From a phage, in the sequence record PZ871099.1: a DNA stretch of 51,075 nucleotides. One strand, 5' to 3'. Below are positions 19,901-44,915 of the stretch, piece by piece. Position 1 is the first letter of the stretch; each line of letters begins with the position of its first letter. The position numbers were made by a program, and so were the translations under genes. Under the pieces are notes generated by a model that had not been told where the DNA came from, ran no database searches, and saw only the letters and a program-made list of their open reading frames with translations.

Positions 19901-20538
19901 CTAAGTTCACGAAAGAGATAAACGACCTTGACGGAGTTATCAAAACAGAAGTCGAGGCTAACATCTCAGAAGTGAAACAGGCGATCGCCAATGAGACAGA
20001 GGCAAGGGTTCAGGCTGACCAGGCTTTAACAGCTAAATTCGGAGACGTTGAGTCAGCACTAGCAGAAAAACTTGATTCGTGGGCTAACGTTGATTCGGTT
20101 GGCGCTAAGTACGCTATGAAATTGGGCCTTAATTACAAGGGGCAGAAGTACAGCGCAGGAATGGTAATGCAGCTATCGCAATCGTCGCAGGGGTTGATCT
20201 CACAAATCCTTTTCGATGCTAACCGATTTGCAATTATGACCAGTTCGGCAGGTGGCGTTTACACATTGCCGTTTGTAGTAGAAAATAACCAGGTGTTTAT
20301 CAACAGTTTGTTGGTGAAAAACGGGTCCATTACTAACGCAATGATTGGTAACGTGATTCAGTCAAATAACTTTGTTCAGAATCAGCAAGGATGGAGGCTT
20401 GATAAAAATGGTAACTTTGAGAACTACGGAACGAGAGCTGGGGAAGGAGCTACAAAATTCAATAACGAAGGCTTAAAAGTGAAAGATGCAAATGGACGAT
20501 TGAGAGTTGAGATAGGGAGAATAACCGGAAGTTGGTAA
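16960..20538 (+). CDS. tail tip / host specificity protein (lambda J-like)
   Basis: about 1190 aa after L/K/I; C-terminal tandem repeats; start moved to MAKYM at 16960. Confidence 0.8.
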   Translation: MAKYMISGSKGGSKKPYVPKEMEDNLISINKIKVLLAVSDGECDPNFTLRDLYLDDVPVIASDGTVNYEGVTAEYRPGTQTQDYIQGFTDTSSEVTVSRDITADNPYIISVTNKNLSAIRIKILMPTGIKQEDNGDLVGVRVQYAVDMAVDGGSYSEVMRDVIDGKTRSGYDRSRRIDLPKFDERVLIRVKRLTPDSTSSKVTDKIKLQSYAEVVDAKFRYPLTGLVFVEFDSELFPTQIPNISIKKKWKIINVPSNYDPISREYHGSWDGTFKKAWSNNPAWVLYDLVTNQRYGLDQRELGIQIDKWSLYEAGVYCDQKVPDGKGGTEPRYLCDVVIQNQVEAYQLIRDICSIFRGMSFWNGESLSIVIDKPRDPSYVFTNENVINGDFQYTTASEKSMYTQCNVTFDDEQNMYQQDVEGVFDTEAALRFGYNPTSITAIGCTRRSEANRRGRWVLKTNLRSTTVNFATGLEGMIPSIGDVIAIADNFQSSNLTLNLSGRVMEVSGLQVFVPFKVDARPGDFIIINKPDGKPVKRTISKVSADGKTIELNIGFGFDVKPDTVFAIDRTDLALQQYVVTTISKGDDENEFTYSITAVEYDPNKYDEIDYGVNIDDRPTSIVQPDVMAAPENVQISSYSRVVQGVSVETMVVSWEKVPYASLYEMQWRKGDGNWLNTPQTANKEIEVEGIYSGNYQVRVRSVSASGNTSPWSKIATATLTGKVGEPGAPINLTASDNEVFGIRVKWGMPEGSGDTAYIELHQSPDGTVENSSLLTLIPYPQYEYWHSTLPAGQVVWYRIRSVDRIGNVSGWTDFVRGMASDDVESVLGDILDKIFDTEAGQEIKENAIDSANKIKDQAQSIIQNALANDADVKWTRVQNGKRKAEYGHALELIANETEARVTQIEELKASIDDDIVSSIKTVQEAIANESETRATQVQQLDSKFTKEIDGVKRDTAASIGEVRQTITNESEARAQAVQQLDAKFTKEINDLDGVIKTEVEANISEVKQAIANETEARVQADQALTAKFGDVESALAEKLDSWANVDSVGAKYAMKLGLNYKGQKYSAGMVMQLSQSSQGLISQILFDANRFAIMTSSAGGVYTLPFVVENNQVFINSLLVKNGSITNAMIGNVIQSNNFVQNQQGWRLDKNGNFENYGTRAGEGATKFNNEGLKVKDANGRLRVEIGRITGSW

Positions 20539-20568
20539 AAAAAAGGGGGCATAGCCCCCTTTAATTTT
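20537..20568. terminator. bidirectional terminator between the J-like gene and the convergent minus cassette
   Basis: A-run, GGGGGCataGCCCCC, T-rich. Confidence 0.75.
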
Positions 20569-21181
20569 AATCATAGTGTGATGAATTTATAACCAAAACA
20601 GATGAAGCCGTGTAAATACCAACAGGACCAGAAGTTTGTGCAACCTGCCTAGATAAAGAATATACCCCGTTGCCATACGCGGCAGCTTGAGACTCAAATA
20701 TCATGAATCCACCTAAAGACGGATTACGCACAGAGTTTAAAGCTGTTAGTGATGGCATGATGGCGCAAGGGTATCCCAAGTTAACGTCAAAAGTGATCCC
20801 GCTTACAGATACAAGTTTTGCATCCAAAGGCTTCATCTTTCCATGATAAACCATCTCACCATTAGCATTATAAAAAGCTATTCCGTGACTACCAGGAGGA
20901 GTAACCATATTGCTAAAAGCATAAACAAATACCTCACCTTGATTGTCGGACTTTTCTATCTTTATTGCGTGCTTCCCACCATTATTAAACTGAGTAAATG
21001 CTATGTATGATTTTGATGTTAATCTTACAAAAAAGAAGCACGGTCTATTTATTGGTATAGAAGTATTAAAAACGGTTCCTGTTTTTGCTGATATTTTACC
21101 TTTATCTATAAGGTTAACAGGAGTGAAATCTGGACTTAACCACAATGATCCGTCTGGTTTTTTTATGCTCATCCCGTACAT
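20567..21181 (-). CDS. hypothetical protein (candidate receptor-binding or tail accessory protein)
   Basis: about 204 aa from ATG 21181 (track start 21193 is TTG); last gene of a three-gene minus cassette ending at a bidirectional terminator. Confidence 0.3.
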   Translation of the reverse strand: MYGMSIKKPDGSLWLSPDFTPVNLIDKGKISAKTGTVFNTSIPINRPCFFFVRLTSKSYIAFTQFNNGGKHAIKIEKSDNQGEVFVYAFSNMVTPPGSHGIAFYNANGEMVYHGKMKPLDAKLVSVSGITFDVNLGYPCAIMPSLTALNSVRNPSLGGFMIFESQAAAYGNGVYSLSRQVAQTSGPVGIYTASSVLVINSSHYD

Positions 21182-21183
21182 TA

Positions 21184-21462
21184 TTACCCCCAAAAAGTAT
21201 ATATATATCTTGAGTCAGATCCAGAAAGTCCGCTCCATGTAACGGTATCACCACTTACACCTAAACTTGGAGCGCCAGGATCTCCTCCGCGCCACGAATT
21301 CATTCCAACATATATTGCTTTCAACGACTTACCTGGCGGCCTGTTTGAGTAGGTCTTACTGCCAGATGATTGAGTAAATTTATCCAAGAAAAAAACTGGA
21401 GTTAAAAGGCCAGTAACATTTCTACCTTGCTCATCATATATTGCATACCCATATTCAGCCAT
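21184..21462 (-). CDS. hypothetical protein
   Basis: 92 aa; shares G(Y/I)A(I/F)Y motif with the downstream gene; stop 2 nt before the next ATG. Confidence 0.3.
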   Translation of the reverse strand: MAEYGYAIYDEQGRNVTGLLTPVFFLDKFTQSSGSKTYSNRPPGKSLKAIYVGMNSWRGGDPGAPSLGVSGDTVTWSGLSGSDSRYIYTFWG

Positions 21463-21736
21463 TTTTGCACCTCAAATCAATGAATTTTCTTTCATCTTGC
21501 CAACGGTTGATAAATTTAACTTCTTTATTGTCAACGCTCAACCTGTATTGCTTTTGGCTGAATCTGTTTTCGCGTACCGCATTAATTTTAACTTCATGGA
21601 ATCCGTTAACAGGGAATGTTTTAACGTTAAATTTTGCCGTGCAATCGATCTCCTTGAAGTTGCCAGTAGGCGAAGAAGAACATCCGGTCAGGGCGGCTAC
21701 GGTGGCGATAACTGCGATTAATTTTTTCATCTTCAA
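21455..21736 (-). CDS. lipoprotein (candidate Cor/Llp-like superinfection exclusion protein)
   Basis: Signal peptide with lipobox LTGC (MKMKKLIAVIATVAALTGCSS); own upstream motif copy. Confidence 0.5.
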   Translation of the reverse strand: MKMKKLIAVIATVAALTGCSSSPTGNFKEIDCTAKFNVKTFPVNGFHEVKINAVRENRFSQKQYRLSVDNKEVKFINRWQDERKFIDLRCKNG

Positions 21737-21787
21737 TACTCCTTAGTTGTTGTTGGCTGTAACTATACACGATCCGGCAAGCCGAGT

Positions 21788-21806
21788 TTAGCAAAAAGTG
21801 CTACTT
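21788..21806 (-). promoter_or_regulatory. conserved intergenic motif copy, degenerate
   Basis: Minus strand reads AGTAGCACTTTTTGCTAAAC, then TATAGT, upstream of the lipoprotein gene. Confidence 0.5.
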
Positions 21807-21879
21807 GTTATTTTTTGTTTTACGGTGTTATCGGATTTAAGACGGCGTAAATTTAGCGCAAATTTTATCCAACATAAGA

Positions 21880-22170
21880 ACAATAAATAATCAATAAAAT
21901 AGGTATATACATATAAAATCAATAGTTTATTTATTTATGTATGTATATTTGTTTTTTCTTGTTATCTGTGTTTCTTGTGGTTTTGGTTGTTTGTGGTGAT
22001 TTTTCTTTCTGAGTATCTGTATGTGCCATCATTCATGTGTATGTATATAATCCGGCGTATATGAGAGAACAAGGGAACAAGAAAAATAACACATATTAAT
22101 CATTAACTTACGCGTCAAATTTGTTTTATTGCCATCTGAGAACGTTTAGAAAACAGAAAAAACAAAACAA
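21880..22170. repeat. GT/AT-rich non-coding module, copy A
   Basis: Shares TTATTTATTTAT, GTTTTTTCTTGTT, TGGTTTTGGTTGTTTGTGGTG, TGTATGTATATAAT, AAAAATAACA with copy B. Confidence 0.6.
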
Positions 22171-22173
22171 CTA

Positions 22174-22201
22174 TTGACTAAATCAACCAAATGGCTACAA
22201 T
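22174..22201 (+). promoter_or_regulatory. canonical sigma70 promoter (TTGACT-16-TACAAT)
   Basis: Read directly; about 30 nt upstream of the recombination module start. Confidence 0.6.
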
Positions 22202-22231
22202 GCACACACAAAGCAACGAGGAGCATTAAAG

Positions 22232-23287
22232 ATGAGTGATTTTAACGCCTATACTAGCGAAGAAATGAGCAATGAGCTTTATCATGATCCTAACGCGTGG
22301 ACGGCTGAATACGTCAGCGGTTCCAGCTTGGCGGAGATTTACAGCACTTGCCCGGCGTACTGGAAGTACAAGCCTCGCCAGGAAACCAAAGCACTTGTTT
22401 TCGGTACGCAGTCGCATACCAATTTTGAAAGCAAGGAGTTATTCGAAAAAACATATCGCCGCGCACCGTCGCAGGATGATTTTAAAGATCTGATCACAAG
22501 TCAAACGGCGTTGGCCTCAAAGCTGAAATCTTTTGGCCTGAAAGGTACGACGGGTAAGCAATACCCCGAATTGCTGGAAATGCTGTACAAGTGCGGTGAG
22601 GATCTCAATGTATGGTGGCTTATCGAAATGATGGCAGAATGCCAGGCCGCAGCGGACGGCGTGCAGCTAATCGACGCGAAAGATTATGATGCCTGTGTAG
22701 CGATGCGGCGCGTACTTGAGGCAATACCTGAGCATAATGCTTGCATGAATAGCCCAACCGCGCAGCGTGAAATGTCAATATTCGGGATCATCAATGGCGT
22801 AAAAGTTAAAGTGCGCCTTGATCACGTTGACGTAAACAAGGATGTAAAGGCCACAATCATTAACGGTTACGACGAAAAAGGCCGACCGATTTATGAAGAA
22901 GTCATCTATCCAGAAGCTGTGATTATCACTGACTATAAAACAACGGTTAGCGCAAATCCTGTTGACTTCCAGCGCCTGGCTTACAATCACGGCTATTATC
23001 TCAAAATGGCTTTGCAGCATGATTTATTTAAAAAGGCGTATCCAGACGAGGAAAGACCAGTAATTGTGAGATTGCTTGCTCAAGAGAAGAAAGAGCCTTA
23101 CTTGCCGCTCGCATTCCGCATGAACATTGAGCAATTGAAGATCGGGCGTATCCAGTACATGAGCGTGATCAACAAGTTCAACGTTTGCCAGCAGTTAGAT
23201 GAATGGCCTTCGTATGCAAACGGACAACCAGAAATTGATCTTGATACTCCTGATTGGGTCCGCGCTCAATTCAGGCAGTATCTATGA
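22232..23287 (+). CDS. PD-(D/E)XK family exonuclease (RecB/RecE-like)
   Basis: 351 aa; RecB-type motif III-like IITDYKTT; first gene of nuclease-annealase-SSB module. Confidence 0.55.
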   Translation: MSDFNAYTSEEMSNELYHDPNAWTAEYVSGSSLAEIYSTCPAYWKYKPRQETKALVFGTQSHTNFESKELFEKTYRRAPSQDDFKDLITSQTALASKLKSFGLKGTTGKQYPELLEMLYKCGEDLNVWWLIEMMAECQAAADGVQLIDAKDYDACVAMRRVLEAIPEHNACMNSPTAQREMSIFGIINGVKVKVRLDHVDVNKDVKATIINGYDEKGRPIYEEVIYPEAVIITDYKTTVSANPVDFQRLAYNHGYYLKMALQHDLFKKAYPDEERPVIVRLLAQEKKEPYLPLAFRMNIEQLKIGRIQYMSVINKFNVCQQLDEWPSYANGQPEIDLDTPDWVRAQFRQYL

Positions 23288-23348: not shown

Positions 23349-24017
<669 letters not shown>

Positions 24018-27269: not shown

Positions 27270-28199
27270 TTATAGCAGTGATTCGGGCTTGTAGAGTTTT
27301 CTTTCTACGCCCTGTTTAAAATTATCGTTAACAGGCATCATTATGTCAAGACCTCTTTCCTCTGCCGCGATTATCACATCACGATCATCTTTCCGGCAGA
27401 CTACGCGCATTCTTCTTTCTCCTTTATATCTATGCGCAACCATTTCAAGATTTGAAGGAGTAAAACAGGCCCACACCTCTTGACCAGTTGATAAATGAAC
27501 GTGTTGGGAGTCAACCCAATCAAGGCACAAATAGATCGTCTTATCCGTGCTACCTGTTTTAACAACAGATCCGCGCGTGTAGTCGCGAGCTAAAAACCAA
27601 TCCTTTCCATCCTCATCAATGAAAAGCACGTTACACATTTCATCATCCAGCCCGTCATCATGCACCAGGTGACAAGGTAGCGCGTGAATGTATCGACCAT
27701 CCTTGACGCCGCAATCATAATAACAATCTTCCGGCGGATATATCCCCTCATAAACGCTTAAGGGTGTGCGATCGAATTTTAATGTTTTTGCCATCACTTT
27801 TTCGCAGCATTCATGACTTGCCTGTTTCCCGAACGAGTAGCCAGAAGAACGTGAAGCGCGCTTGTTTGCTCTGATCCTGTAATCTTGTGGCACTTTGCCG
27901 AGGAAGCGGCCCAAAATGTTGATGGCCTCGCTGTAAGGTTCGCCAGTTAATTTCATTAACCAACCGATTCCAGTGTCGTTACCGCACACGTTGCAGATCG
28001 CGCCGCCGTCGCCCTCTTCATTTAGCTTATCAGTCCATCTAAAACGATCCTTACCGCCGCAGTGTGGGCAAGGCTGATGCTTTTTGTTGAAAACATCGCT
28101 ATGCAGTCCGCAAATGCTTTGTAGTGCTTCACGCCATAACCCCTTCATATATGGCAAAACATCTTCTTTCTGATAGGTCATAAAGTTTTCAGTATTCAT
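27270..28199 (-). CDS. DNA primase (zinc-binding, putative)
   Basis: Cys motif CPHCGG...CNVCGN, acidic DEDG/DD segments; start trimmed to MNTENF because the track start 28277 lies beyond a terminator hairpin. Confidence 0.5.
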   Translation of the reverse strand: MNTENFMTYQKEDVLPYMKGLWREALQSICGLHSDVFNKKHQPCPHCGGKDRFRWTDKLNEEGDGGAICNVCGNDTGIGWLMKLTGEPYSEAINILGRFLGKVPQDYRIRANKRASRSSGYSFGKQASHECCEKVMAKTLKFDRTPLSVYEGIYPPEDCYYDCGVKDGRYIHALPCHLVHDDGLDDEMCNVLFIDEDGKDWFLARDYTRGSVVKTGSTDKTIYLCLDWVDSQHVHLSTGQEVWACFTPSNLEMVAHRYKGERRMRVVCRKDDRDVIIAAEERGLDIMMPVNDNFKQGVERKLYKPESLL

Positions 28200-28212
28200 G
28201 GCAAACCTCAAT

Positions 28213-28247
28213 AAAAAAGCCCAGCAAATATTATCATTTCGCTGGGC
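28213..28247 (-). terminator. terminator-like hairpin after the HTH gene
   Basis: On minus: GCCCAGCgaaatgataatatttGCTGGGC plus T6; lies inside the track N-terminus of primase. Confidence 0.55.
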
Positions 28248-28254
28248 CTTATCA

Positions 28255-28731
28255 TTAGCTATTCGTGCTGTTATCACCTTTGTAGAATCTTCCGCCTGGT
28301 TCGTAGTCTGAATTTTTGACTACGCGCAACATTTCGTATTTGTCGCAACGGGTAGTAAGAGGCTTGCCGTTAGAATCAAACCGCAGATCTGGACGACAAA
28401 ACGAGGCGCGGTATCCTTTGCATCCATTATATTTGTAGTCGTTATGCACCTTTTGTGCTCCAGCGGCTGAAATCATACCACGCTTTCGCCATTGGTTAAC
28501 TACTTGCTGAGATACGCGTAGACGTCGAGCCATAGCAGGAACACCGCCGTAATACTCGATCAGAATGTCAAGGCGAGATTTCAGGCTTGCTTTTACCTCA
28601 TCTCGCAGGATAAGAAATCCGGTTCGGTGTTTTCGTGGCTTTTTGTCTTTACCTCGTCGCGTTCCGTTGTTACCGTTAATAATGCGCTTGTCGATCTCAC
28701 CCGTAGATACTGCAATTCGTGCATCTTTCAT
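28255..28731 (-). CDS. HTH DNA-binding protein (putative transcription regulator)
   Basis: HTH-like segment MARRLRVSQQVVNQWRKRGMIS; Cys-containing C-terminus. Confidence 0.45.
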   Translation of the reverse strand: MKDARIAVSTGEIDKRIINGNNGTRRGKDKKPRKHRTGFLILRDEVKASLKSRLDILIEYYGGVPAMARRLRVSQQVVNQWRKRGMISAAGAQKVHNDYKYNGCKGYRASFCRPDLRFDSNGKPLTTRCDKYEMLRVVKNSDYEPGGRFYKGDNSTNS

Positions 28732-32557: not shown

Positions 32558-32789
32558 GCAAGGAAGAGATGCGGTATGGAATCACGCTAAAGAATGCGGT
32601 ATTGCCGACGATATAAAGAAGATCGCGCAATACTTTGATATTGCAGATGTGAGCATAATTAGCGGCGACAAGATGACTTTCCTCAAGGAAAGGCCGCGAA
32701 AAATGGTAAGAGTTCCAGCAGTTCCAACAAAAATTGATTTCAAAGAGGCAATGGCTAAAATCCGAGAGCCTCGCAAATATTATAAATGA
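32547..32789 (+). CDS. hypothetical protein
   Basis: Start moved to MKVEQGRD. Confidence 0.3.
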   Translation: MKVEQGRDAVWNHAKECGIADDIKKIAQYFDIADVSIISGDKMTFLKERPRKMVRVPAVPTKIDFKEAMAKIREPRKYYK

Positions 32790-32883
32790 GGATAGTTATC
32801 ATGTGGCGCTTGTTTGTTCTACCGTTACCAGTTATCATCGCTGTTACAGTTATGTACCATATAGTGATGAGATAGGTAGCAGA

Positions 32884-33999
32884 ATGAAAAATGTAAAAAT
32901 TACAGATGAGCAATTCAAGATCGAACGGGCGGCAGGTAAGACATATAAACAGATCGCTCAAGAGTACGGAATGAATGTGAGAAGCGTCGAGCGTCGCGCG
33001 GCGCGTCTTGCAAAGCAAGGACAGTTATCGACCATCGGAGCGCCTGGTTTTGGTGTTCATGGTGAGTCAGTAATGACTGACAAAGAAGGAAATATAATCC
33101 TCAAGTGGACCAAAACCAGCAAGGATAAAGAGCAATTAGAGGCACTGATGCGCGCAGCTATGGAGGCGTTTAGCGAGGAAGTGCCGCGATTAGATCCAGT
33201 TCCATTGCAGGAGCGTAATTATAATGAAACGCTTTCATTGTATCCGATCTTTGACATGCACTTAGGCGCTATGGCCCATAAGCACGAATGCGGCGAAAAT
33301 TGGGATACTGCGACGGCAGAGCGCGTTATGAATAACTTTATCGACTATGCTTTGATGTGCGCGCCGGACAGCGAAAAGGCTGTTATCCTGATTGGTGGCG
33401 ATATGCTTCATAGCGATGGCCTGGAGGCTGTGACACCTGCAAGCGGTCACGTACTTGATCAAGATAGCCGATATGCAAAATTGGTTTACGTTGCAATCCG
33501 TGCAATGCGTCGCGCAATTAATAAAATGCTGTTAAAGCATAAACATGTTGAGGTTCAGGTCGTTGAGGGCAATCACGACCAATCAGGAATGATTTGGCTA
33601 CGCGCAGCAATGGCGTCAGCATATGAGAACGAGCCGCGCGTTTACGTTGATGTTTCTCCTCGCGTTGTTCACCACACGCAATACGGAAAAACTTTCCTTG
33701 CGTACCATCACGGGCACACAGTGCGCAAACCTGAAACTTTGCTAATGATGTGCGCGTCCGATTGGCGGGAGGACTTCGGAAACTCAAAAACGATGTATGC
33801 GCACGTAGGGCATTGGCATCACCAGACCGTAACGGAAACGTCGCTTGGCATCGTGGAAGTACATAGCACCCTGGCGGCAAAAGACGCATACGCCGCGCGC
33901 GGTGGCTGGCGATCTCGACGCCGTGCGGCGGTTATCATTTACGACAAAGAGCATGGAGAAGTCGGGCGATTTGTTCACTATCCAGAAATGATGAATTGA
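32884..33999 (+). CDS. calcineurin-like metallophosphoesterase with N-terminal HTH-like region
   Basis: Motifs DMH, GGDMLHSDG, EGNHDQ, HHGH, GHWHH in canonical order; N-terminal YKQIAQEYGMNVRSVERRAARLAKQG. Confidence 0.65.
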   Translation: MKNVKITDEQFKIERAAGKTYKQIAQEYGMNVRSVERRAARLAKQGQLSTIGAPGFGVHGESVMTDKEGNIILKWTKTSKDKEQLEALMRAAMEAFSEEVPRLDPVPLQERNYNETLSLYPIFDMHLGAMAHKHECGENWDTATAERVMNNFIDYALMCAPDSEKAVILIGGDMLHSDGLEAVTPASGHVLDQDSRYAKLVYVAIRAMRRAINKMLLKHKHVEVQVVEGNHDQSGMIWLRAAMASAYENEPRVYVDVSPRVVHHTQYGKTFLAYHHGHTVRKPETLLMMCASDWREDFGNSKTMYAHVGHWHHQTVTETSLGIVEVHSTLAAKDAYAARGGWRSRRRAAVIIYDKEHGEVGRFVHYPEMMN

Positions 34000-35242: not shown

Positions 35243-35260
35243 TGCCTCCTTTATTTTTAT
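35232..35260 (+). terminator. rho-independent terminator after the spanin gene
   Basis: AGGAGGCttaatGCCTCCT plus T-rich. Confidence 0.7.
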
Positions 35261-35481
35261 GCGTCGGGCCACATATGAGTTTCGTTTGTTGGCTTGTTCG
35301 ATTCGTCGTACTGCCTTACTTCAATGCTGCAAGTGTCGCCGTACAGTTCTGCAATCTTGCGCTCATTTTCAACCGCCGATTGCTCACTCCATCCAAAATC
35401 CCTGTCGTAAATTGTCGGTATTTCAGCAGAAGATCCGTTGTCATGATTATATACGCGAACTACTAAAAACTTGCTGGACAT
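35257..35481 (-). CDS. hypothetical protein
   Basis: 74 aa, own upstream motif copy at 35543. Confidence 0.3.
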   Translation of the reverse strand: MSSKFLVVRVYNHDNGSSAEIPTIYDRDFGWSEQSAVENERKIAELYGDTCSIEVRQYDESNKPTNETHMWPDA

Positions 35482-35542
35482 AATTTTACCTTTTGGTTGT
35501 TTCGTTTCGATGAAACAAATATACCCGACACTAGGCCGGGCG

Positions 35543-35563
35543 TTTTAACAAAAAATGCTATTC
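35543..35563 (-). promoter_or_regulatory. conserved intergenic motif copy
   Basis: Same hairpin as the 32301 copy, inverted; TATATT box. Confidence 0.6.
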
Positions 35564-35678
35564 CATACGCTTTACCGTAACCAGTAATACACCATCATCA
35601 TTGCATAAAACATGTTCAGTGGTGCTAAAAGCGCGCATATCTGAATAAAGCAGTGTAAGTAACGCATGAATAAAATCC

Positions 35679-36074
35679 TCATGTGATATTGAATTTACGG
35701 CGCAGTGCTTCAAGATCTTGTCTATTAGCTTTTGCCTGGAACAATTCATCATCGCCCATCTCCCCTATTCTAGCCATATCCCTGATCCAGTCGTTGCGCA
35801 TACCATCCAGGCTATACAATTCGAATCCGAAAGGCCGCTTTGACGATCCTTTGGACCAGTATTTACCGCATACCCCATCTATATAGCCAGCCGTCATCAT
35901 TCTTGCGCAAAATTCCTTAGATGCAAGGCTGGCGAACATTCGCGGCGTAAGTCCGGCGGCACGTGCGAGCCGCTCGCATTCTCTATGCTGATAGATAAAT
36001 TTGGCTATGTGCTGCCTGTTAAACCAGTCGTATGACTCACACCATTTATACAGATCAAGCAAAAACATAATCAT
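35679..36074 (-). CDS. hypothetical protein (translationally coupled to upstream ATPase)
   Basis: 131 aa, ATGA overlap with the stop of 36071..37651. Confidence 0.4.
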   Translation of the reverse strand: MIMFLLDLYKWCESYDWFNRQHIAKFIYQHRECERLARAAGLTPRMFASLASKEFCARMMTAGYIDGVCGKYWSKGSSKRPFGFELYSLDGMRNDWIRDMARIGEMGDDELFQAKANRQDLEALRRKFNIT

Positions 36075-37651
36075 CCCAGCAGTATTGGATTTACAAAAAT
36101 AACACCATTAATCACACAAACATAATTTCTCTCTTCCAGCATTGGCAGCAAGTGCCCTTCTATCCTCTTCATTACGCCAGCTTGACCAACGAAAGGTTTT
36201 ACCTTTCTCGCTGATTCGTACAGGGCGCGGATATTCAGAATCCCTTTATTAGCCTTGCCGTGTCTAGTGATCAATTCAATCAATTTACCCATTTCAGCAT
36301 CATCACCAGCATAACCAGAAGCATTGGCGGCGCTAATGTATGTTTTGCTCAATTCCTGAAACATGATCAGCGCCTCTTGCATTGTTTCCACGTCGATCTC
36401 TTTCGACTTCTGCGGGTATCCAGCAGGATTAAACCAGTTGCGGATAACATGCAGGACGGAAGCAAGCCTGATCACCTGTTTATCCATTTTACCCAGCGCA
36501 CCGCGTAACATTGTATGAGAATACTTTCCGCCGTCTGCAAGATGCGGTTCCATATCCTGGCGAGCAATGTTGAGCACTCGCATAGCTGAACGGCTTATTT
36601 TCAGCGATACATTTGATTCGCTCATGATGTTATGCACCAATTGATAATATTGGGCCTTCAATTCAGAATCCACCGCCTCATAGGTAGAATCACCATTTTC
36701 ATCAATGAATGAGCGACGGCCTAAGAATGATTCCTCGCGGACCAACAAAAAGCGCTCACTAACACCGATACCGCGCGATCCAGCGTCCATGATTCCGCTT
36801 ATCGTTTCATCCTGGGCTATAACGCTCATACATCCAAGCGCGCGAAAACTCATGTTATTGTCAGCATTAGCACGGGCAATTGATACGTGACCATTATCCC
36901 ACGCCTTAAGCACTAGCTCACTGTTAGTCTTCCTTTCGCTATTTGCATAGGTCAAGCCTAACAAACTGTTAATACTTGTTGCTTCGTCAGATATTACGGC
37001 AAAGTTACCTTGCTTGTTGTTGATTTTCGCCAGGCCTTCTGGAGTTGTATCTGAAACAGGGAAAGTTATATCACACATCTTTTCCAGCTTCTCCTCCAGA
37101 TCCTCTTTTTCCTGGTATAGAGATTCCATATCAGCGCCTGATCTTTCGCTTTTCATCTCCTTTGCAAGACCTGCCAACTTTGCCTGTATTTTCTTTCTTT
37201 CCTTGCGGCGTTGCTCGTTGATCTTCTCAACTTCCGCAATCATCGGAGCAATAGCCATACTGTTGATCGCAGATTTACCAGTTGACGGCGGCTGGCTTGT
37301 AACGACGTAAAGCGCAGTCGGCTGATCGGTCCCGTGATAGTCAACCGTAAAGCGTCCAAGCATGGCGGCAGAAATGCAGCCGATAAAGTGCATGTAAGCC
37401 GATGATTCAGGGAATTGAACGGATCGCGCAATACTGCGTGATAACTTTCCGACAACATCAATATCATTACCAAGAGAAATTACGGGGTAGCGATCGTGAC
37501 CGCTATTTACATCTTTCACTTCGCCCCAAAAGCTGGACGACTGGCGATAGCCGTTAGCCTGAATTGATACGCGAACTGGCGAAAGGTTCTGGCTTTCAGC
37601 CATAGCGATTATTTGCTGTGGAGTTAATTTGTTCGTTTCTAATGAAAACAT
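36071..37651 (-). CDS. P-loop NTPase of unknown function
   Basis: 526 aa; Walker A QPPSTGKSA, Walker B-like FAVISDEA; family not assignable by eye. Confidence 0.5.
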   Translation of the reverse strand: MFSLETNKLTPQQIIAMAESQNLSPVRVSIQANGYRQSSSFWGEVKDVNSGHDRYPVISLGNDIDVVGKLSRSIARSVQFPESSAYMHFIGCISAAMLGRFTVDYHGTDQPTALYVVTSQPPSTGKSAINSMAIAPMIAEVEKINEQRRKERKKIQAKLAGLAKEMKSERSGADMESLYQEKEDLEEKLEKMCDITFPVSDTTPEGLAKINNKQGNFAVISDEATSINSLLGLTYANSERKTNSELVLKAWDNGHVSIARANADNNMSFRALGCMSVIAQDETISGIMDAGSRGIGVSERFLLVREESFLGRRSFIDENGDSTYEAVDSELKAQYYQLVHNIMSESNVSLKISRSAMRVLNIARQDMEPHLADGGKYSHTMLRGALGKMDKQVIRLASVLHVIRNWFNPAGYPQKSKEIDVETMQEALIMFQELSKTYISAANASGYAGDDAEMGKLIELITRHGKANKGILNIRALYESARKVKPFVGQAGVMKRIEGHLLPMLEERNYVCVINGVIFVNPILLG

Positions 37652-37704
37652 TCGTTAGCTTCTCCTTTGTGGGCCGTAAATTTTAACGGCCCAATACTAC
37701 CCCG

Positions 37705-37726
37705 TTTTGTCAAAAAGTGCTATTTG
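37705..37726 (-). promoter_or_regulatory. conserved intergenic motif copy (TTGACA variant)
   Basis: AAATAGCACTTTTTGACAAAAC, 22 nt, TAAAAT inside a hairpin; upstream of the ATPase gene. Confidence 0.6.
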
Positions 37727-37941
37727 ATCCGCTCTATTGCAACCAGAAGTCGATCAGGCTGGCGGTCGCTGTAGCATTCTCCTGTAATCCCATCCTTAAA
37801 CGTAAAGTAAAGCGCCTTATGATATGAAAAACCAATCAGCCAACCTACCGCCGTTTTTTTGATGGGCCTGACTATATCGCCAGGCTTGAAAGTCTTTGTG
37901 GTAGAATGCGTTACTTTGTAACGGTTTTCACTGTTTATCAC
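37720..37941 (-). CDS. hypothetical protein
   Basis: 73 aa. Confidence 0.3.
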   Translation of the reverse strand: MINSENRYKVTHSTTKTFKPGDIVRPIKKTAVGWLIGFSYHKALYFTFKDGITGECYSDRQPDRLLVAIERIK

Positions 37942-38324
37942 AGATATTTGCCCTCAAAAAGATAACAGCCGCCAGCAGAGAATCCGACCTCTTCACGGTA
38001 CAGGTTCCAGCGGTCGCCGCACTCATCAAAAACATAACCCGCAACGCTTCCAAGCGGTCGCCCTTTCTCGATCTGGTATCTCTTGCCCTGCTTAAAGTGC
38101 TTTTTGCACGGCATGTTATGATCTACAAACGTGCAAAGAACGGTTTTTGTGTTAATGGCGCGGTAATCATCTCGGTTTGCTGGAAGCCAGCGGCTACCCT
38201 TAACAAGCGTCTTAACCTGGAATTCTTCCACCTCGATCACATCATTACTTCCTGCAATCTTCTGATAAACCGTTTTAAAACGGCCTTTCATCAATACGTT
38301 GGTTTCATTACAGATAACATTCAT
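37938..38324 (-). CDS. hypothetical protein
   Basis: 128 aa; own motif copy, hairpin and CATAAT upstream. Confidence 0.35.
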   Translation of the reverse strand: MNVICNETNVLMKGRFKTVYQKIAGSNDVIEVEEFQVKTLVKGSRWLPANRDDYRAINTKTVLCTFVDHNMPCKKHFKQGKRYQIEKGRPLGSVAGYVFDECGDRWNLYREEVGFSAGGCYLFEGKYL

Positions 38325-41521: not shown

Positions 41522-41775
41522 TTTTTCTTCTCCTGCAATAAGCAAACATCATTGATAAAATCAGCACGGCCCTTAATGTTGCTGATGTGGAACGTCTTTT
41601 CAGCGTACAGGCCATCACCTTCAATCACGATCATTACGCGAGTCGGTTTATTCACGGGCGCACATGAAAAGAGTGGGCGCGCCGGAAGAAATTTAGTAGC
41701 CACATCCAGGTTAGCCCTGGCGGCCCTGCAAAACGCCTCCGCCAGATCCAAATCATTTTCGGTAATCACCGCCAT
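41509..41775 (-). CDS. hypothetical protein (paralog of 41312..41521)
   Basis: 88 aa. Confidence 0.35.
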   Translation of the reverse strand: MAVITENDLDLAEAFCRAARANLDVATKFLPARPLFSCAPVNKPTRVMIVIEGDGLYAEKTFHISNIKGRADFINDVCLLQEKKKCWM

Positions 41776-42047
41776 TACTTCTTGATCTCCTCACTGATAA
41801 ATTTCAGCACCTGACGCAAGAAAACCTCGTTGTTGATAGTCGCTGGCAATTCTTCTTTCACTTCTTGCGGCAGATAGATATTGCCGTGCCAGGTCAAGCA
41901 ATCGTAGTTGATACGATAAGAGCAAAGCCACTCGCAATCGTTATCTGCTTCCCAAATGCAGAGTTGCAGAACATCGCCGAAGTCTTCAACAGTCAGATCC
42001 AGACCGTGACGCTTAGCGAAGTTGAAAGTGGTTTTGCTGATGTTCAT
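41775..42047 (-). CDS. hypothetical protein
   Basis: 90 aa; first gene after the 42106 motif copy. Confidence 0.35.
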   Translation of the reverse strand: MNISKTTFNFAKRHGLDLTVEDFGDVLQLCIWEADNDCEWLCSYRINYDCLTWHGNIYLPQEVKEELPATINNEVFLRQVLKFISEEIKK

Positions 42048-42105
42048 TGCTATCTCCTGAGCGGTTCGTTTCGATGTGTGTAATGTACCCGATCAGACGG
42101 CCTGA

Positions 42106-42127
42106 GTTTTAACAAAAAGTGCTATTT
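42106..42127 (-). promoter_or_regulatory. conserved intergenic motif copy
   Basis: 22 nt then TACATT, then leader ACACACATCGAAACGAA. Confidence 0.6.
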
Positions 42128-42149
42128 GACGGTTAGCGCCAGGATTGCG

Positions 42150-42250
42150 ATCGAAATAATCAAAAGTAATCATTCGTAATCAAATCACGTCAAAATGATG
42201 ATTGCCTTTGCAAATTTGATGAGAAAAGTAATCACGTTTAATCATTGGTT
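42150..42250. repeat. iteron-like array of TAATCA repeats
   Basis: AATAATCAAAAGTAATCATTCGTAATCAAATCACG ... AAAGTAATCACGTTTAATCATTGG; five copies spaced about 10 bp. Confidence 0.5.
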
Positions 42251-42399
42251 GCAGGGGAGATAGTGAAACCCTCCCCTCTTGCCTCACTTTTCCGCCTGGC
42301 TGTCAGTGGTTGTTGTCTTTTGTTCACCCCTGTTACCGATTTCAGGCGGCGTGTTTCCGCGCGGTTTTCCGGTGTAGCGAAAACGGAAAAAACAAAGAA

Positions 42400-42680
42400 A
42401 ATCCTCTATAATACATTGAAAATAAAGATTATTTATTTATATATATCTATAATGTTTTCTTTTTGTTCTCACTGTTACAGTGCTTTTTGTTGGTTATGGT
42501 GTGGTTGTGTGTGGGCATATATGGATAGTTGCGCGCGCGGCGGATTGCATATGTATATATACTTTTTCCGGCGGATTGCGTTAACAGCGTGAACAGAAAA
42601 ATAACAGCCCTGAAATCAACAACTTGCGCATGATTTTGTAGTTTTTCGATATTGGTAACGTTTTGAATACAACAAAAACA
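42400..42680. repeat. GT/AT-rich non-coding module, copy B
   Basis: Same blocks in the same order as copy A; spurious ORF 42245..42592 overlaps it. Confidence 0.6.
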
Positions 42681-42708
42681 TTGACACGCACCAAATAGCT
42701 TTTATAAT
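42681..42708 (+). promoter_or_regulatory. canonical sigma70 promoter (TTGACA-16-TATAAT)
   Basis: Read directly; start of the plus-strand early cluster; track ATG at 42707 lies in the -10 box so the gene start is placed at 42740. Confidence 0.65.
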
Positions 42709-42739
42709 GAGCCAACAGTCAACAACTGGAGGAAAGGAA

Positions 42740-43204
42740 ATGGAACAGAAAACCACTAAGGACTATTGCGATTGGCTTCGCGAGCTTGGTCGCCGCCTGG
42801 CTAGTGGCGATATTGAAGAGTATAAAATGTCACTAATTGACCTGGCCGGAATGTTAAGCGGTGACGACTGCTACAAGATCACGCGCAGTTCATCCTACAG
42901 CCGGACCATTATCAACCGCGTTCCAGAAGTAAGGGCCGCAGGTCGGGTAAGCATCAAGGTAGAGGAAACGGAAGATGATAAATTTTACGTTTTCCGCATG
43001 GTCCGCGAATCGAAAAGGAAAATCATCACACCCGAAGAATTGCCAGCCATCAAGGCAAGGGCGATCAAAAAGTTTGCCGATCGCTTACTGGCAGCAATCC
43101 CGAACATCGTGGACCTGGAAGGGGATAAACTGGCTGGAGCTTGTGAGGGCGTAAGCCGCTACCAGGATATGATCCGAGAAATCATCAAAGAGGAGGAGCA
43201 ATAA
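42740..43204 (+). CDS. hypothetical early protein
   Basis: RBS GGAGGAAAGG before ATG 42740. Confidence 0.35.
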   Translation: MEQKTTKDYCDWLRELGRRLASGDIEEYKMSLIDLAGMLSGDDCYKITRSSSYSRTIINRVPEVRAAGRVSIKVEETEDDKFYVFRMVRESKRKIITPEELPAIKARAIKKFADRLLAAIPNIVDLEGDKLAGACEGVSRYQDMIREIIKEEEQ

Positions 43205-43464
43205 TGAAAAAGGCATTAATCGGCGTTTTGGCGGCAATGACACTCCTGACCGGATGCGAAAAGGCATCAGAATCAACTGTTGTCGTAGGCGTGGAGTCAG
43301 ATTTCAAAGTCGGCCGCCTGTTCACTGTTGACGGATGCACAGCATACAGATTCTATGATAACGGTCGCGCGATCTATTACACCAACTGCAAAGGCGCAAC
43401 GGATAGCACGTACAACAGCGGAAAGAACGTAATGCACCAGCAAGTCACAACAGATATTAAATAG
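43204..43464 (+). CDS. lipoprotein (putative)
   Basis: Signal peptide with lipobox LTGC (MKKALIGVLAAMTLLTGCEK). Confidence 0.5.
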   Translation: MKKALIGVLAAMTLLTGCEKASESTVVVGVESDFKVGRLFTVDGCTAYRFYDNGRAIYYTNCKGATDSTYNSGKNVMHQQVTTDIK

Positions 43465-43480
43465 CACTTTTTGTTAAAAC
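43460..43480 (+). promoter_or_regulatory. conserved intergenic motif copy
   Basis: Stop TAG embedded; hairpin GCCAGGCgcaaaGCCTGGC; CATAAT; leader CATCGAAACGA. Confidence 0.6.
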
Positions 43481-43536
43481 GCCAGGCGCAAAGCCTGGCA
43501 TAATAGCCTCATCGAAACGAGATTGAGGAAACAAAA

Positions 43537-43722
43537 ATGGCACGTCGCATCACCAAAGACCTTAAAGTCCTGAACAAAGAAAACGTAGTTAAAATCCTGG
43601 TTATCTGGGGCTACAACGAAGAAACAGCAAAGCAGAAGGTCGAGGCGGGTTACGACCTGGCTGTAAAAGCAATGCCAAACGACGACGCAAAAGGCATTGC
43701 AAACTATGTGGCTTTCTTTTAA
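43537..43722 (+). CDS. hypothetical protein
   Basis: 61 aa, motif copy upstream. Confidence 0.3.
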   Translation: MARRITKDLKVLNKENVVKILVIWGYNEETAKQKVEAGYDLAVKAMPNDDAKGIANYVAFF

Positions 43723-43737
43723 TTAGCGGGTGAATAA

Positions 43738-43923
43738 ATGAAAACGAAATTAGTCCATAAATCAGAAATCAAGATCGGCGATACTGTGATTCACAACGGA
43801 GAGCTTAGAACGGTTGGCAAAGAGTCAATAAGCCACGATGAATTTATGGGGATCTTGTTGTTCGGTGACTCTTATCGTCTTGGTTACAAGATGGTTGAGC
43901 TTGTGGAAGAAGTAAAATTCTAA
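43738..43923 (+). CDS. hypothetical protein
   Basis: 61 aa. Confidence 0.3.
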   Translation: MKTKLVHKSEIKIGDTVIHNGELRTVGKESISHDEFMGILLFGDSYRLGYKMVELVEEVKF

Positions 43924-43943
43924 ATAGCACTTTTTGTTAAAAC
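43923..43943 (+). promoter_or_regulatory. conserved intergenic motif copy
   Basis: 22 nt then CATAAT. Confidence 0.55.
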
Positions 43944-44021
43944 TCGAAAACGATAACCAGACATAATAAATCACATAGGGCGGCACGGCGTCGCCCACAA
44001 AACCAATCAGGAGAAATCACC

Positions 44022-44915
44022 ATGTTAAAACTTGCTGACATTAAATTCCCGATCACCTTCGAATCTCGCGGCATTGGTCATTACATTTTTACCGATGAAA
44101 AAACATGCCATAAGGTTGATATGAATAGCGACAAACTAAGCCCATCAACAATGGAGATTGAACACTTTATTGATGCGCACAATACGCATTACAACGCACT
44201 TAAAGACTATGGCTACGCAATGCCAGGCTACACATGCTTGCACTACAAACCATATAAGGGCCAAGTGTTACCAGTGCGCTCACCGGAACGCGCAGAGATT
44301 CCGATGGTCAATATGAAAACCTGCGACTACAAAAAGCTGTGGTGCTTAAGTCTGGACAATATCAAGTATCCGATCACGTTCCACACGACTGGTAAGTCAA
44401 CGATTCGCTACACATCGCGCGACAATGGCGTTTATAGCGATGGTACGAAATCAGAGTTGAAAGTTGATTTCTTTGTCAACGGTCACAACAAATTCAATCC
44501 GCACAACGAAGAGGATAAAGTGTATTACGTGGAAGACATTACAAAACACTTGTTTGGAGAAACACCATTCGGCGGCGGAAAGACGTCAATTCAAAAAATC
44601 ATTGGCGAGGAGATCCACAAAGCGGCTACCGAAATGAAAGCGCCTGGAGGATGGCGTATTGATAAGAGCGCCTTTGCAAATCAAGAAATCGTAACGCAGG
44701 GCGCAATTGAAGATATTCCAGTTGCAGCCACGCTAAAAGGAGTCCGGCTTGATGATGGCACCTGGTATGAACTAACAGCGAAACCAAAGACGATCGAAAT
44801 TCATGATGACGTTGTTATCCTCCTGCTTCACTATGGCAGCACAAAAAACCGTACCGTTGCGGGTGAGATCAACATCAAGCGCGGAACGATGGTTAAGTGG
44901 AAGGTCAAAGTGTAA
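44022..44915 (+). CDS. hypothetical protein with internal tandem duplication
   Basis: Two related segments LADIKFPITFESRG... and LDNIKYPITFHTTG... Confidence 0.4.
   Translation: MLKLADIKFPITFESRGIGHYIFTDEKTCHKVDMNSDKLSPSTMEIEHFIDAHNTHYNALKDYGYAMPGYTCLHYKPYKGQVLPVRSPERAEIPMVNMKTCDYKKLWCLSLDNIKYPITFHTTGKSTIRYTSRDNGVYSDGTKSELKVDFFVNGHNKFNPHNEEDKVYYVEDITKHLFGETPFGGGKTSIQKIIGEEIHKAATEMKAPGGWRIDKSAFANQEIVTQGAIEDIPVAATLKGVRLDDGTWYELTAKPKTIEIHDDVVILLLHYGSTKNRTVAGEINIKRGTMVKWKVKV

What the first reader, a model, noticed from the sequence alone, without database searches (positions are those of the whole stretch)
35679..37651. Two-gene operon: 526-aa P-loop ATPase translationally coupled to a 131-aa protein
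The ATPase has clear Walker A and B motifs but I cannot assign it to a family; the helicase, primase and terminase roles are already filled elsewhere. Its stop overlaps the start of the 131-aa gene, and the pair has its own promoter-like element with a TTGACA variant.
Basis: partly seen in the sequence, partly recalled or inferred. Interest (0 to 1): 0.55.

Follow-up and report, generated by a model that had tools for sequence, protein, structure and literature searches.

The report
T1-like phage MCM-like helicase cassette
The unassigned ATPase is the MCM-like (DUF3987) DNA helicase of a T1-like coliphage, already annotated as a helicase in public records; the untested part is that it is always followed by, and inherited with, an uncharacterised winged-helix protein and an overlooked 64-aa gene.

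Summary
The window is a Warwickvirus (Drexlerviridae, T1-like), about 99% identical to phage tonijn. Both ORFs exist on the minus strand, with Walker A/B motifs and an ATGA stop/start overlap.

**The 131-aa protein.** It is probably 129 aa, starting at Met3. It is a lineage-restricted winged-helix protein with an acidic D-x-E-L-F tail, and the "YdbL" label is unsupported. It follows the helicase within -4 to +10 nt in all but one of 47 loci and was exchanged together with the helicase between two otherwise ~89%-identical phages. I infer a helicase cofactor; this is not shown.

**Extras.** A conserved overlapping 64-aa third gene exists, and the "promoter" is one of 21 copies of a known, unexplained T1-type repeat.

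The parts
37705..37725 (-). Copy of the T1-type 21-nt intergenic direct repeat (AAATAGCACTTTTTGACAAAA). It contains the exact TTGACA (37713..37708). Its TAG (37722..37720) is the stop codon of the upstream 73-aa gene.
   Evidence: The repeat was described for phage TLS in PMC11447400, with function unknown.
37670..37699 (-). Helicase leader. It has a first -10-like hexamer TAGTAT (37699..37694), then the hairpin TGGGCCGT/ACGGCCCA (37693..37670). The hairpin loop carries a second -10-like hexamer, TAAAAT (37685..37680), exactly 22 nt after TTGACA.
   Evidence: The T, A and final T of the hexamers are invariant across 17 lineages. The hairpin is kept in 15 of 16 lineages with at least 11 different arm sequences, dG -12 to -17 kcal/mol. 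Its function is unexplained.
37662..37667 (-). Shine-Dalgarno AAGGAG of the helicase gene, 10 nt before the ATG.
   Evidence: Sequence; conserved in all relatives.
36071..37651 (-). 526-aa DUF3987 / MCM-like AAA+ helicase.
- Walker A: nt 37271-37294
- Walker B: nt 36983-37000
- Arg finger R300: nt 36752-36754
- C-terminal winged helix: about nt 36074-36313
36066..36074 (-). Coupling junction: the helicase stop TGA (36073..36071) overlaps ATG-1 of the small gene (36074..36072). The conserved start is Met3 (36068..36066), 2 nt after the stop.
   Evidence: The gap is -4 to +10 nt in all but one of 47 loci.
35679..36074 (-). 131-aa (probably 129-aa) winged-helix protein. The wHTH core covers residues 1-100. 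The acidic tail carries the invariant D-x-[EDQ]-L-F motif (D107-F111, nt 35742-35756).
35558..35752 (-). 64-aa third gene. It overlaps the last 74 nt of the small gene in another frame, and its stop is the TAG of the next repeat copy.
   Evidence: PHROG 9539, E 2e-25. The frame is intact at 63-66 aa in 44 loci with 35 distinct sequences, including T1, where it is not annotated. It is annotated as bas04_0044 in phage FritzSarasin.
35523..35563 (-). The next copy of the 21-nt repeat (35563..35543), with a terminator-like hairpin (35541..35523). Together they close the helicase unit and precede the 74-aa gene (35257..35481).

Best explanation
The 526-aa protein is the phage's own ring helicase. 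It is a DUF3987-family, MCM-like (superfamily 6) AAA+ ATPase with a C-terminal winged helix. T1-like phages encode no DNA polymerase (established knowledge, restated in PMC11447400). The helicase would therefore unwind phage DNA for a replisome built from the phage's stand-alone Zn-ribbon primase and the host polymerase.

It is transcribed from its own copy of the phage's recurrent intergenic control element. Translation then runs by termination-reinitiation into a ~129-aa winged-helix protein, and by an out-of-frame overlap into a 64-aa protein.

I propose that the winged-helix protein is a dedicated cofactor of this helicase subtype, acting as a loader, an activator or a replisome adaptor. 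Its folded winged-helix core would bind DNA or the helicase. Its flexible acidic D-x-E-L-F tail would dock onto a partner.

**Shown here:**
- family membership, fold and intact catalytic motifs;
- tight synteny and coupling;
- co-inheritance of the small gene with the helicase.

**Inferred:**
- the replicative role in this phage;
- any physical interaction;
- what the tail binds.
For: **Helicase identity.**
- Pfam DUF3987, 151 bits against a cutoff of 27.
- PHROG 2373 'DNA helicase', E 9e-245.
- QPPSTGKS, vISdE, VIAQDE, GvSERF and LRG are conserved down to 36% identity.

**Family function.** DUF3987 was predicted to be a replicative SF6 helicase family linked to primases (PMC4889955). AgaPH, a DUF3987 protein, unwinds DNA 5'-3', depends on Walker A and B, and binds its primase (PMC11724360).

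**Context.**
- In distant relatives the gene lies directly beside the Zn-ribbon primase, the SF2 helicase, the RecE-like exonuclease and SSB.
- In the window no other ring helicase exists: the 665-aa helicase is SF2 plus VRR-NUC, and the primase lacks a helicase half.
- The gene is present in 926 phage records.

**Cofactor inference.**
- The small gene lies -4 to +10 nt after the helicase in all but one of 47 loci.
- The family is confined to 20 clusters among 1.84 billion representatives.
- CHRF_10034 and Bas79 share 64 ORFs at a median of 89% identity, with primase at 91% and SF2 helicase at 83%. Their DUF3987 helicases are only 33.5% identical, and only the phage with the T1-type helicase carries the small protein.
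- The D-x-[DE]-L-F tail persists at 36% identity in a lineage that has no overlapping gene.
- The flanking genes vary while helicase, small gene and 64-aa gene stay together.
Against: - There is no experiment on any T1-type DUF3987 protein or on the small protein.
- In Drexlerviridae the helicase gene lies about 7.4 kb from the primase.
- DUF3987 helicases at 37% identity or less lack the small protein, so it is not a general requirement of the family.
- In Drexlerviridae the tail motif is also constrained by the start of the overlapping 64-aa gene.
- The primase did not co-transfer with the helicase, so a strict helicase-primase pairing is not evident.
- The classic work on T1's dependence on host dna genes could not be consulted.
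Confidence: 0.6

Rival explanations
1. The helicase is not the fork helicase. It acts only at initiation (origin melting through its C-terminal winged helix) or in recombination-dependent restart, while host DnaB drives the forks.
For: - The C-terminal winged helix resembles those of the initiators ORC and Cdc6.
- The phage carries a full recombination set: Erf, a RecE-like exonuclease, an SF2 helicase and VRR-NUC.
- The helicase cassette moved between phages without the primase.
Against: - DUF3987 helicases substitute for DnaB, MCM or RepA domains in primase fusions (PMC5862659).
- AgaPH is a processive-type 5'-3' helicase that binds its primase.
- No iterons or origin-like repeats lie near the genes.
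- The stand-alone primase would otherwise lack a helicase partner of its own.
Confidence: 0.2
2. The small winged-helix protein is an autonomous DNA-binding regulator. One version makes it the unknown factor that binds the 21-nt intergenic repeat. On this view it merely shares a transcript with the helicase.
For: - It has a generic wHTH fold with a mildly basic core, net charge +1 to +5.
- The repeat is centred near -42 relative to a -10-like hexamer, where class II activators bind.
- The repeat's function is an open question.
Against: - Macdonaldcampvirus CHRF_10034 has the small protein next to its helicase but no copy of the repeat, against 18-21 copies in Drexlerviridae.
- The protein tracks the helicase subtype, not the genome backbone.
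- The repeat precedes early genes, which must fire before any phage protein is made.
- Another Cro/YdaS-like regulator is encoded at 28255..28731.
Confidence: 0.15
3. The pair is an accessory counter-defence or defence-related module rather than core replication machinery.
For: - Neighbouring genes in the same leftward string are defence triggers. The 128-aa gene two genes upstream triggers Mokosh type I.
- Phage helicases can trigger retrons.
Against: - Neither protein has a PADLOC hit.
- The gene is universal in the family, with 926 records.
- Catalytic motifs are under strong conservation.
- In distant phages the gene sits in replication modules.
- The known SECphi27 triggers are other proteins.
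Confidence: 0.04

Closest known systems
AgaPH, the PriCT-DUF3987 helicase of a Seonamhaeicola mobile element (PMC11724360)
   Same: The same Pfam family (DUF3987). Walker A and B are conserved and are required for unwinding in AgaPH. Both have a small C-terminal domain, and both are proposed to be the replicative helicase of a mobile element working with a primase.
   Different: - The phage protein has no PriCT N-domain. It has a helical N-domain of about 100 residues instead.
- Its primase is a DnaG/Zn-ribbon type rather than AEP and is not adjacent.
- Polarity and oligomeric state are untested here.
- AgaPH has no reported small winged-helix partner.
Archaeal and eukaryotic MCM helicases (SF6 AAA+)
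   Same: - An S-x-R-F arginine-finger motif.
- A beta-hairpin before the sensor-1 strand in the model.
- A C-terminal winged helix.
- MCM is also loaded by winged-helix-rich factors (ORC, Cdc6, Cdt1). That last point is an analogy only.
   Different: - There is no N-terminal OB-fold or zinc domain.
- A long helical hairpin (residues 126-191) is inserted after the P-loop helix.
- There is no Pfam MCM hit.
- AgaPH moves 5'-3', whereas MCM moves 3'-5'.
SCCmec Cch and SaPI Rep/primase-helicases
   Different: They are much weaker matches than MCM, belong to different Pfam families, and have different partners.
Phage helicase plus accessory operons (lambda O-P, T4 gp41-gp59, DnaB-DnaC)
   Same: The logic is the same: a replication helicase function encoded next to, and translationally coupled with, a small protein that delivers it to DNA. 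Lambda O uses a winged-helix-type DNA-binding domain (from my own knowledge, not tested here).
   Different: There is no sequence or specific fold relationship. Here the helicase itself is phage-encoded and MCM-like. No loader activity has been shown.

Membership tests
DUF3987 (Pfam PF13148) | Match to the family HMM above the gathering score | tested here: met
   151.4 bits against a cutoff of 27, E 4.9e-44, covering residues 81-430 against profile positions 3-350 of 364. All 120 homologs listed carry PF13148.
DUF3987 / P-loop NTPase | Walker A (GxxxxGK[ST], with variation) and Walker B (hhhhDE) | tested here: met
   QPPSTGKS is nearly invariant (one position is T, S or A), with Q in place of the first G. 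In VISDE the E223 is invariant, and D is replaced by A in five relatives.
MCM-like AAA+ (superfamily 6) | AAA+ core most similar to MCM, with sensor 1, a trans-acting arginine finger (MCM 'SRF') and sensor 2 | tested here: met
   [not shown]
MCM-like AAA+ (superfamily 6) | Pre-sensor-1 beta-hairpin and helix-2 insert | tested here: inconclusive
   The model has a hairpin at E255-259/E266-270 just before the sensor-1 strand, but pLDDT there is 59-74. No beta-hairpin helix-2 insert is seen. A long alpha-helical hairpin (126-191) occupies that region instead.
MCM family proper (Pfam PF00493 and the N-terminal domain) | N-terminal OB-fold/zinc domain and a match to the MCM HMM | tested here: not met
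   There is no Pfam MCM hit at E up to 1. Residues 1-100 of the model are helical only. The protein is MCM-like but not an MCM.
DUF3987 replicative helicases (Kazlauskas et al. 2016) | [quoted passage not shown] | tested here: met
   [not shown]
DUF3987 replicative helicases | Fusion to, or adjacency with, an AEP or DnaG-type primase | tested here: inconclusive
   Not adjacent in the window: the primase is at 27270..28277, about 7.4 kb away. It is directly adjacent in distant relatives L004 and XCL1123, and within 2 kb in CHRF_10034 and Bas79.
Hexameric helicase | Ring oligomer, ATP-driven unwinding, defined polarity | not testable with these tools
   Shown only for AgaPH (PMC11724360).
YdbL (DUF1318), the label carried by the small protein in several records | Match to the YdbL/DUF1318 family | tested here: not met
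   The small protein has no Pfam or NCBIfam family at E up to 1. The label appears to have been propagated from one phage record.
Winged helix-turn-helix fold (small protein) | Helix bundle with a recognition helix followed by a beta-hairpin wing | tested here: met
   [not shown]
Known helicase loaders and initiators (DnaC, lambda P/O, gp59, DnaD and others) | Sequence or specific fold similarity | tested here: not met
   Pfam, NCBIfam, PHROG, PDB sequence and BFVD searches returned only the protein's own family.
Anti-phage defence or counter-defence proteins | Match to PADLOC models, or identity with a known trigger | tested here: not met
   There are no PADLOC hits. The Mokosh trigger is the 128-aa neighbour and the RAZR trigger is the Erf-like protein.
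Canonical sigma-70 promoter | -35 and -10 hexamers 16-18 nt apart | tested here: not met
   The scan finds no site upstream of 37651. TTGACA and TAAAAT are 22 nt apart.
T1-type 21-nt intergenic direct repeat (aaATAGCACnnnTTGnTAAAA) | Consensus match, intergenic, co-oriented, about 76 nt upstream of a start codon | tested here: met
   AAATAGCACTTTTTGACAAAA lies at 37725..37705, 71 nt from TAGCAC to the ATG. It is one of 21 copies. The consensus is taken from PMC11447400.

The most novel reading that the evidence does not exclude
The winged-helix protein, possibly together with the 64-aa protein, is a previously unrecognised class of dedicated loader or adaptor for virus-encoded MCM-like helicases in bacteria. 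Its core would bind the helicase or DNA. Its D-x-E-L-F tail would tether the phage helicase to a host replisome component such as the clamp, SSB or Pol III. That would explain how a phage without its own polymerase couples a non-DnaB helicase to the host replicase.
Probability: 0.25. Interest if true: 0.6.

Novelty: new member of a known kind. Interest (0 to 1): 0.32.

Why it matters
Replication of T1-like phages is poorly understood even though T1 is a classic phage and a notorious laboratory contaminant. A 2024 reannotation of the relative TLS still names the SF2 enzyme as "the helicase" and does not mention DUF3987.

Three things follow from recognising the MCM-like DUF3987 protein as the only ring-helicase candidate with two co-inherited small partners:
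- It defines a compact, testable replication module of three genes that can be swapped between phages.
- No DUF3987 protein has a solved structure detectable by sequence, so a structure of this one would be the first.
- The partners offer a route to the question of how a bacterial virus loads an MCM-like helicase and couples it to the host polymerase.

The practical gain for annotation is modest. The helicase call in RefSeq is right, the "YdbL" label should be dropped, and the 64-aa gene should be added to T1 and tonijn.

Tried and rejected
1. **"YdbL" identity of the small protein.** No DUF1318 or any other family hit. Rejected.
2. **Small protein as the Mokosh type I trigger of SECphi27 ("128 aa, unknown function").** The supplementary sequence starts MNVICNETN, which is the ORF at 37938..38324, not the 131-aa protein. 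Rejected.
3. **Helicase as the RAZR ring trigger.** The trigger is Gp77, an Erf-like protein. Rejected.
4. **Retron-Eco11 and Druantia/Zorya papers.** They concern other phages and other genes.
5. **Small protein as the binder of the 21-nt repeat.** The repeat is absent from a phage that has the protein. Disfavoured.
6. **Small protein as a duplicate of the helicase C-terminal winged helix.** hhalign probability 0.2%. Rejected.
7. **Hidden homologs in the small genes that flank distant DUF3987 helicases.** hhalign and BLAST were negative.
8. **Helicase-small-protein fusion in Vibrio phage Vc1 as Rosetta-stone evidence.** The record has a duplicated segment and a frameshift. Discarded as an assembly artefact.
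9. **Origin signals near the pair.** No iterons were found, and GC skew only follows transcription.
10. **D-x-E-L-F conserved only through dual coding with the 64-aa gene.** The motif persists where no overlapping ORF exists. Rejected as the sole cause.
11. **Searches that could not be run.** The afdb50 fold library was unavailable. The T1 genome paper was not held. Searches for T1's dependence on host dna genes found nothing usable.
12. **Weak hits treated as chance.** The Pol_alpha_B_N hit of the 64-aa protein (E 0.015, below the cutoff). The augmin, WWC1 and OmpH hits to the helicase's coiled-coil insert.
Full report
**What the window is.** The 2.5 kb around the finding is 98-99% identical to Escherichia phages tonijn, tiwna, FritzSarasin (Bas04) and others. 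These are Drexlerviridae, subfamily Tempevirinae, genus Warwickvirus, and so are T1-like siphoviruses. SECphi27, a phage widely used in defence-system studies, belongs to the same genus and is 92-97% identical across the window.

**Check of the observation.**
- *ORFs.* Both ORFs are present on the minus strand: 526 aa at 36071..37651 and 131 aa at 35679..36074, with an ATGA overlap at 36071-36074.
- *Motifs.* Walker A is QPPSTGKS and Walker B is VISDE. Both are conserved in 22 relatives down to 36% identity.
- *Gene spacing.* Across 47 loci with both genes, including T1 and SECphi27, the small gene begins -4 to +10 nt from the helicase stop. The one exception is a start-codon call.
- *Start codon.* Most homologs start MFLLDLY, which equals Met3 here. 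That ATG lies 2 nt after the stop, with GGGA 5 nt upstream. The protein is therefore probably 129 aa, and reinitiation after termination is the likely mode of coupling.

**The "promoter".**
- *Canonical test.* An exact TTGACA lies at 37713..37708, but the sigma-70 scan reports nothing upstream of the helicase.
- *Why.* TTGACA is part of a dispersed repeat, TAGCAC-N3-5-TTGnnA. The window has 21 copies against 1.5 expected by chance, and the intergenic copies are co-oriented with the gene downstream. In 15 copies a -10-like hexamer follows after 21-22 nt rather than 17, and a start codon lies 67-97 nt downstream in most.
- *Prior description.* The repeat has been described in phage TLS with the consensus aaATAGCACnnnTTGnTAAAA, at 21 locations about 76 nt upstream of start codons. 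Its function is listed there as an open question (PMC11447400).
It is the phage's standard element, not a canonical promoter.
- *Boundaries.* A second copy at 35563..35543, with a terminator-like hairpin, closes the unit.

**What the ATPase is.**
- *Family.* It matches Pfam DUF3987 at 151 bits against a cutoff of 27. It matches PHROG 2373 "DNA helicase" end to end, E 9e-245. RefSeq calls it DNA helicase.
- *Catalytic motifs.* The family conserves sensor 1 (VIAQDE), an arginine finger in an MCM-like S-E-R-F motif (R300) and sensor 2 (LRG, R383).
- *Differences from MCM.* It lacks the MCM N-terminal OB/zinc domain and carries a long helical hairpin insert (residues 126-191). It is MCM-like, not an MCM.
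- *Agreement with the literature.* Kazlauskas et al. linked DUF3987 to MCM, noted the C-terminal wHTH and the primase association, and predicted replicative helicases (PMC4889955; PMC5862659). A DUF3987 protein, AgaPH, has since been shown to be a Walker-dependent 5'-3' helicase that binds its primase (PMC11724360).
- *Structures.* No DUF3987 protein has a solved structure detectable by sequence.

**Is the helicase role "filled elsewhere"?** It is not.
- The 665-aa "ATP-dependent helicase" is SF2 (ResIII plus Helicase_C) and is followed by a VRR-NUC nuclease.
- The primase has only the Zn-ribbon of primase-helicases. It matches positions 6-316 of a 667-position PHROG profile, which is the primase half alone.
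- In more distant phages the DUF3987 gene sits directly next to such a primase, the SF2 helicase, a RecE-like exonuclease and SSB.
- The helicase occurs in 926 phage records.
- I therefore take it to be the phage's ring helicase. Whether it drives forks or acts only at initiation is not settled.

**The small protein.**
- *Family searches.* It has no Pfam, NCBIfam or PADLOC match, and it belongs to PHROG 2794, function unknown. The "YdbL" label in some records is unsupported.
- *Distribution.* An exhaustive profile search of 1.84 billion cluster representatives finds only 20 clusters, all at E of 5e-11 or better. It occurs in 835 phage records.
- *Fold.* Its model (pLDDT 85.9, and 86-97 over residues 1-100) is a winged helix followed by two helices and a flexible tail. 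PDB matches are generic wHTH proteins with Z no higher than 7.7, and the viral structure library returns only its own family.
- *Charge and tail.* The core is mildly basic and the tail is acidic. The tail carries an invariant D-x-[EDQ]-L-F motif, which in short homologs lies 1-6 residues from the C-terminus.

**Evidence that it belongs with the helicase.** Beyond the constant adjacency, a natural module swap is informative.
- Salmonella phage CHRF_10034 (Macdonaldcampvirus) and Escherichia phage Bas79 share 64 ORFs at a median of 89% identity. This includes the primase (91%), the SF2 helicase (83%), and SSB and the exonuclease (89-92%).
- Their DUF3987 helicases are only 33.5% identical.
- CHRF_10034 carries a T1-type cassette in this order: helicase (53% identical to the window), small protein (36%, 3 nt downstream), then the metallophosphoesterase "repair exonuclease" (65% identical to window 32734..33999).
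- Bas79 carries a divergent helicase followed by three unrelated small ORFs.
- The small protein is thus inherited with the helicase subtype and not with the primase or the genome backbone.

**The regulator alternative.** The same comparison bears on the idea that the small protein binds the 21-nt repeat. CHRF_10034 has the protein but no copy of the repeat, against 18-21 copies in Drexlerviridae.

**A third gene.**
- A 64-aa ORF (35558..35752, minus strand) overlaps the last 74 nt of the small gene in another frame.
- It is intact at 63-66 aa in 44 loci, with 35 distinct sequences down to 38-45% identity. It matches PHROG 9539.
- It is annotated in Bas04 but not in tonijn or T1, where it would lie at about 44002..44169 on the minus strand.
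- Its start codon lies inside the codons of the D-x-E-L-F motif, so dual coding could inflate that motif's conservation.
- Macdonaldcampvirus has neither the third gene nor any overlapping ORF there, yet keeps D-D-D-L-F. The motif therefore matters to the small protein itself.
- The gene downstream of this block (74 aa) is present in only 7 loci. The conserved block is leader, helicase, small gene, 64-aa gene.

**Mechanism proposed.**
- *Shown:* family, fold, catalytic motifs, coupling and co-inheritance.
- *Inferred:* the helicase unwinds phage DNA for a replisome made of the phage primase and the host polymerase. The wHTH protein is its cofactor (loader, activator or adaptor), made in step with it by translational coupling. 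Its acidic-aromatic tail is a docking peptide.
- *Rivals:* an initiation-only or restart helicase (0.2), an autonomous regulator (0.15), and a defence-related module (0.04).

**Verdict.** The main object is ordinary and already annotated: a known helicase family in a well-sampled phage family. What remains open, and modestly interesting, is the pair of uncharacterised partners co-inherited with an MCM-like helicase in a phage that borrows the host polymerase. Interest 0.32; new member of a known kind.

Noticed in passing
window 37938..38324 (-): This 128-aa ORF, two genes upstream of the helicase, is 99% identical to the SECphi27 "protein of unknown function (128aa)". Its frameshift lets the phage escape Mokosh type I, and co-expressing it with that system is toxic (bioRxiv 10.1101/2022.08.27.505566). 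It has a T1 homolog, ST7, at 60% identity over the C-terminal 75 residues.
   Followed up: yes
window, 21 sites (for example 2094+, 31233+, 32303+, 35560-, 37722-, 38396-, 40314-, 43462+, 47656+): The known T1-type 21-nt repeat has features I did not find in the TLS paper section I read. A -10-like hexamer lies at a fixed 21-22 nt after TTGnnA in 15 of 21 copies, which places the repeat at about -52 to -32. A short hairpin often fills that spacer. In 13 of 21 copies the repeat's TAG, or the preceding TAA, is the stop codon of the upstream gene. This suggests a compact stop, terminator and promoter cassette that needs an activator or the RNA polymerase alpha-CTD.
   Followed up: partly
window 37670..37693 (-), with equivalents in L009-L049 and T1: The hairpin in the helicase leader is conserved in 15 of 16 lineages through compensatory changes (at least 11 different arm sequences, 8-11 bp). 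A TATAAT-like hexamer sits at its apex, and no U-tract follows on either strand. Its role is unexplained: it could be a 5' stabiliser of the mRNA, an attenuator, or a DNA-level element.
   Followed up: partly
window 35558..35752 (-); T1 (L005) about 44002..44169 (-): A conserved 64-aa gene (PHROG 9539) overlaps the small gene out of frame. It is missing from the T1 and tonijn RefSeq annotations.
   Followed up: yes
window 23364..24017 (+): This Erf-family protein has S19, L20, V22, S31, D41, D53 and E55, exactly the residues named for SECphi27 Gp77, the ring-forming trigger of the RAZR defence protein (PMC13017515). It is evidently the ortholog.
   Followed up: partly
L058 (CHRF_10034) 19078..22469 compared with L059 (Bas79) 41743..44274: This is a clean module swap between two ~89%-identical phages. 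A T1-type cassette of helicase, wHTH protein and metallophosphoesterase replaces a divergent helicase plus three small ORFs, while the primase and SF2 helicase on either side stay 83-91% identical. In Drexlerviridae the lysis cassette separates the same phosphoesterase (window 32734..33999) from the helicase.
   Followed up: yes
phage records such as MG065640.1 (Campylobacter phage A14b): About 20 records labelled Campylobacter jejuni phages carry this T1-like region, with the small protein at about 74% identity to the coliphage version. Host mislabelling or culture contamination with T1-like coliphages seems likely.
   Followed up: no
Vibrio phage Vc1 protein P0204: The deposited 345-aa "Helicase" contains a duplicated 80-residue segment and reads through from the helicase into the small protein before frameshifting. 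This is an assembly or annotation artefact, not a natural fusion.
   Followed up: yes
window 32734..33999 (+): The "DNA repair exonuclease" (PHROG 704) has only sub-threshold Pfam hits, to an N-terminal HTH (sigma-70 region 4-like) and to the calcineurin-like phosphoesterase family. Deposited records start it at different codons (371-398 aa, against the 421-aa TTG ORF here).
   Followed up: no
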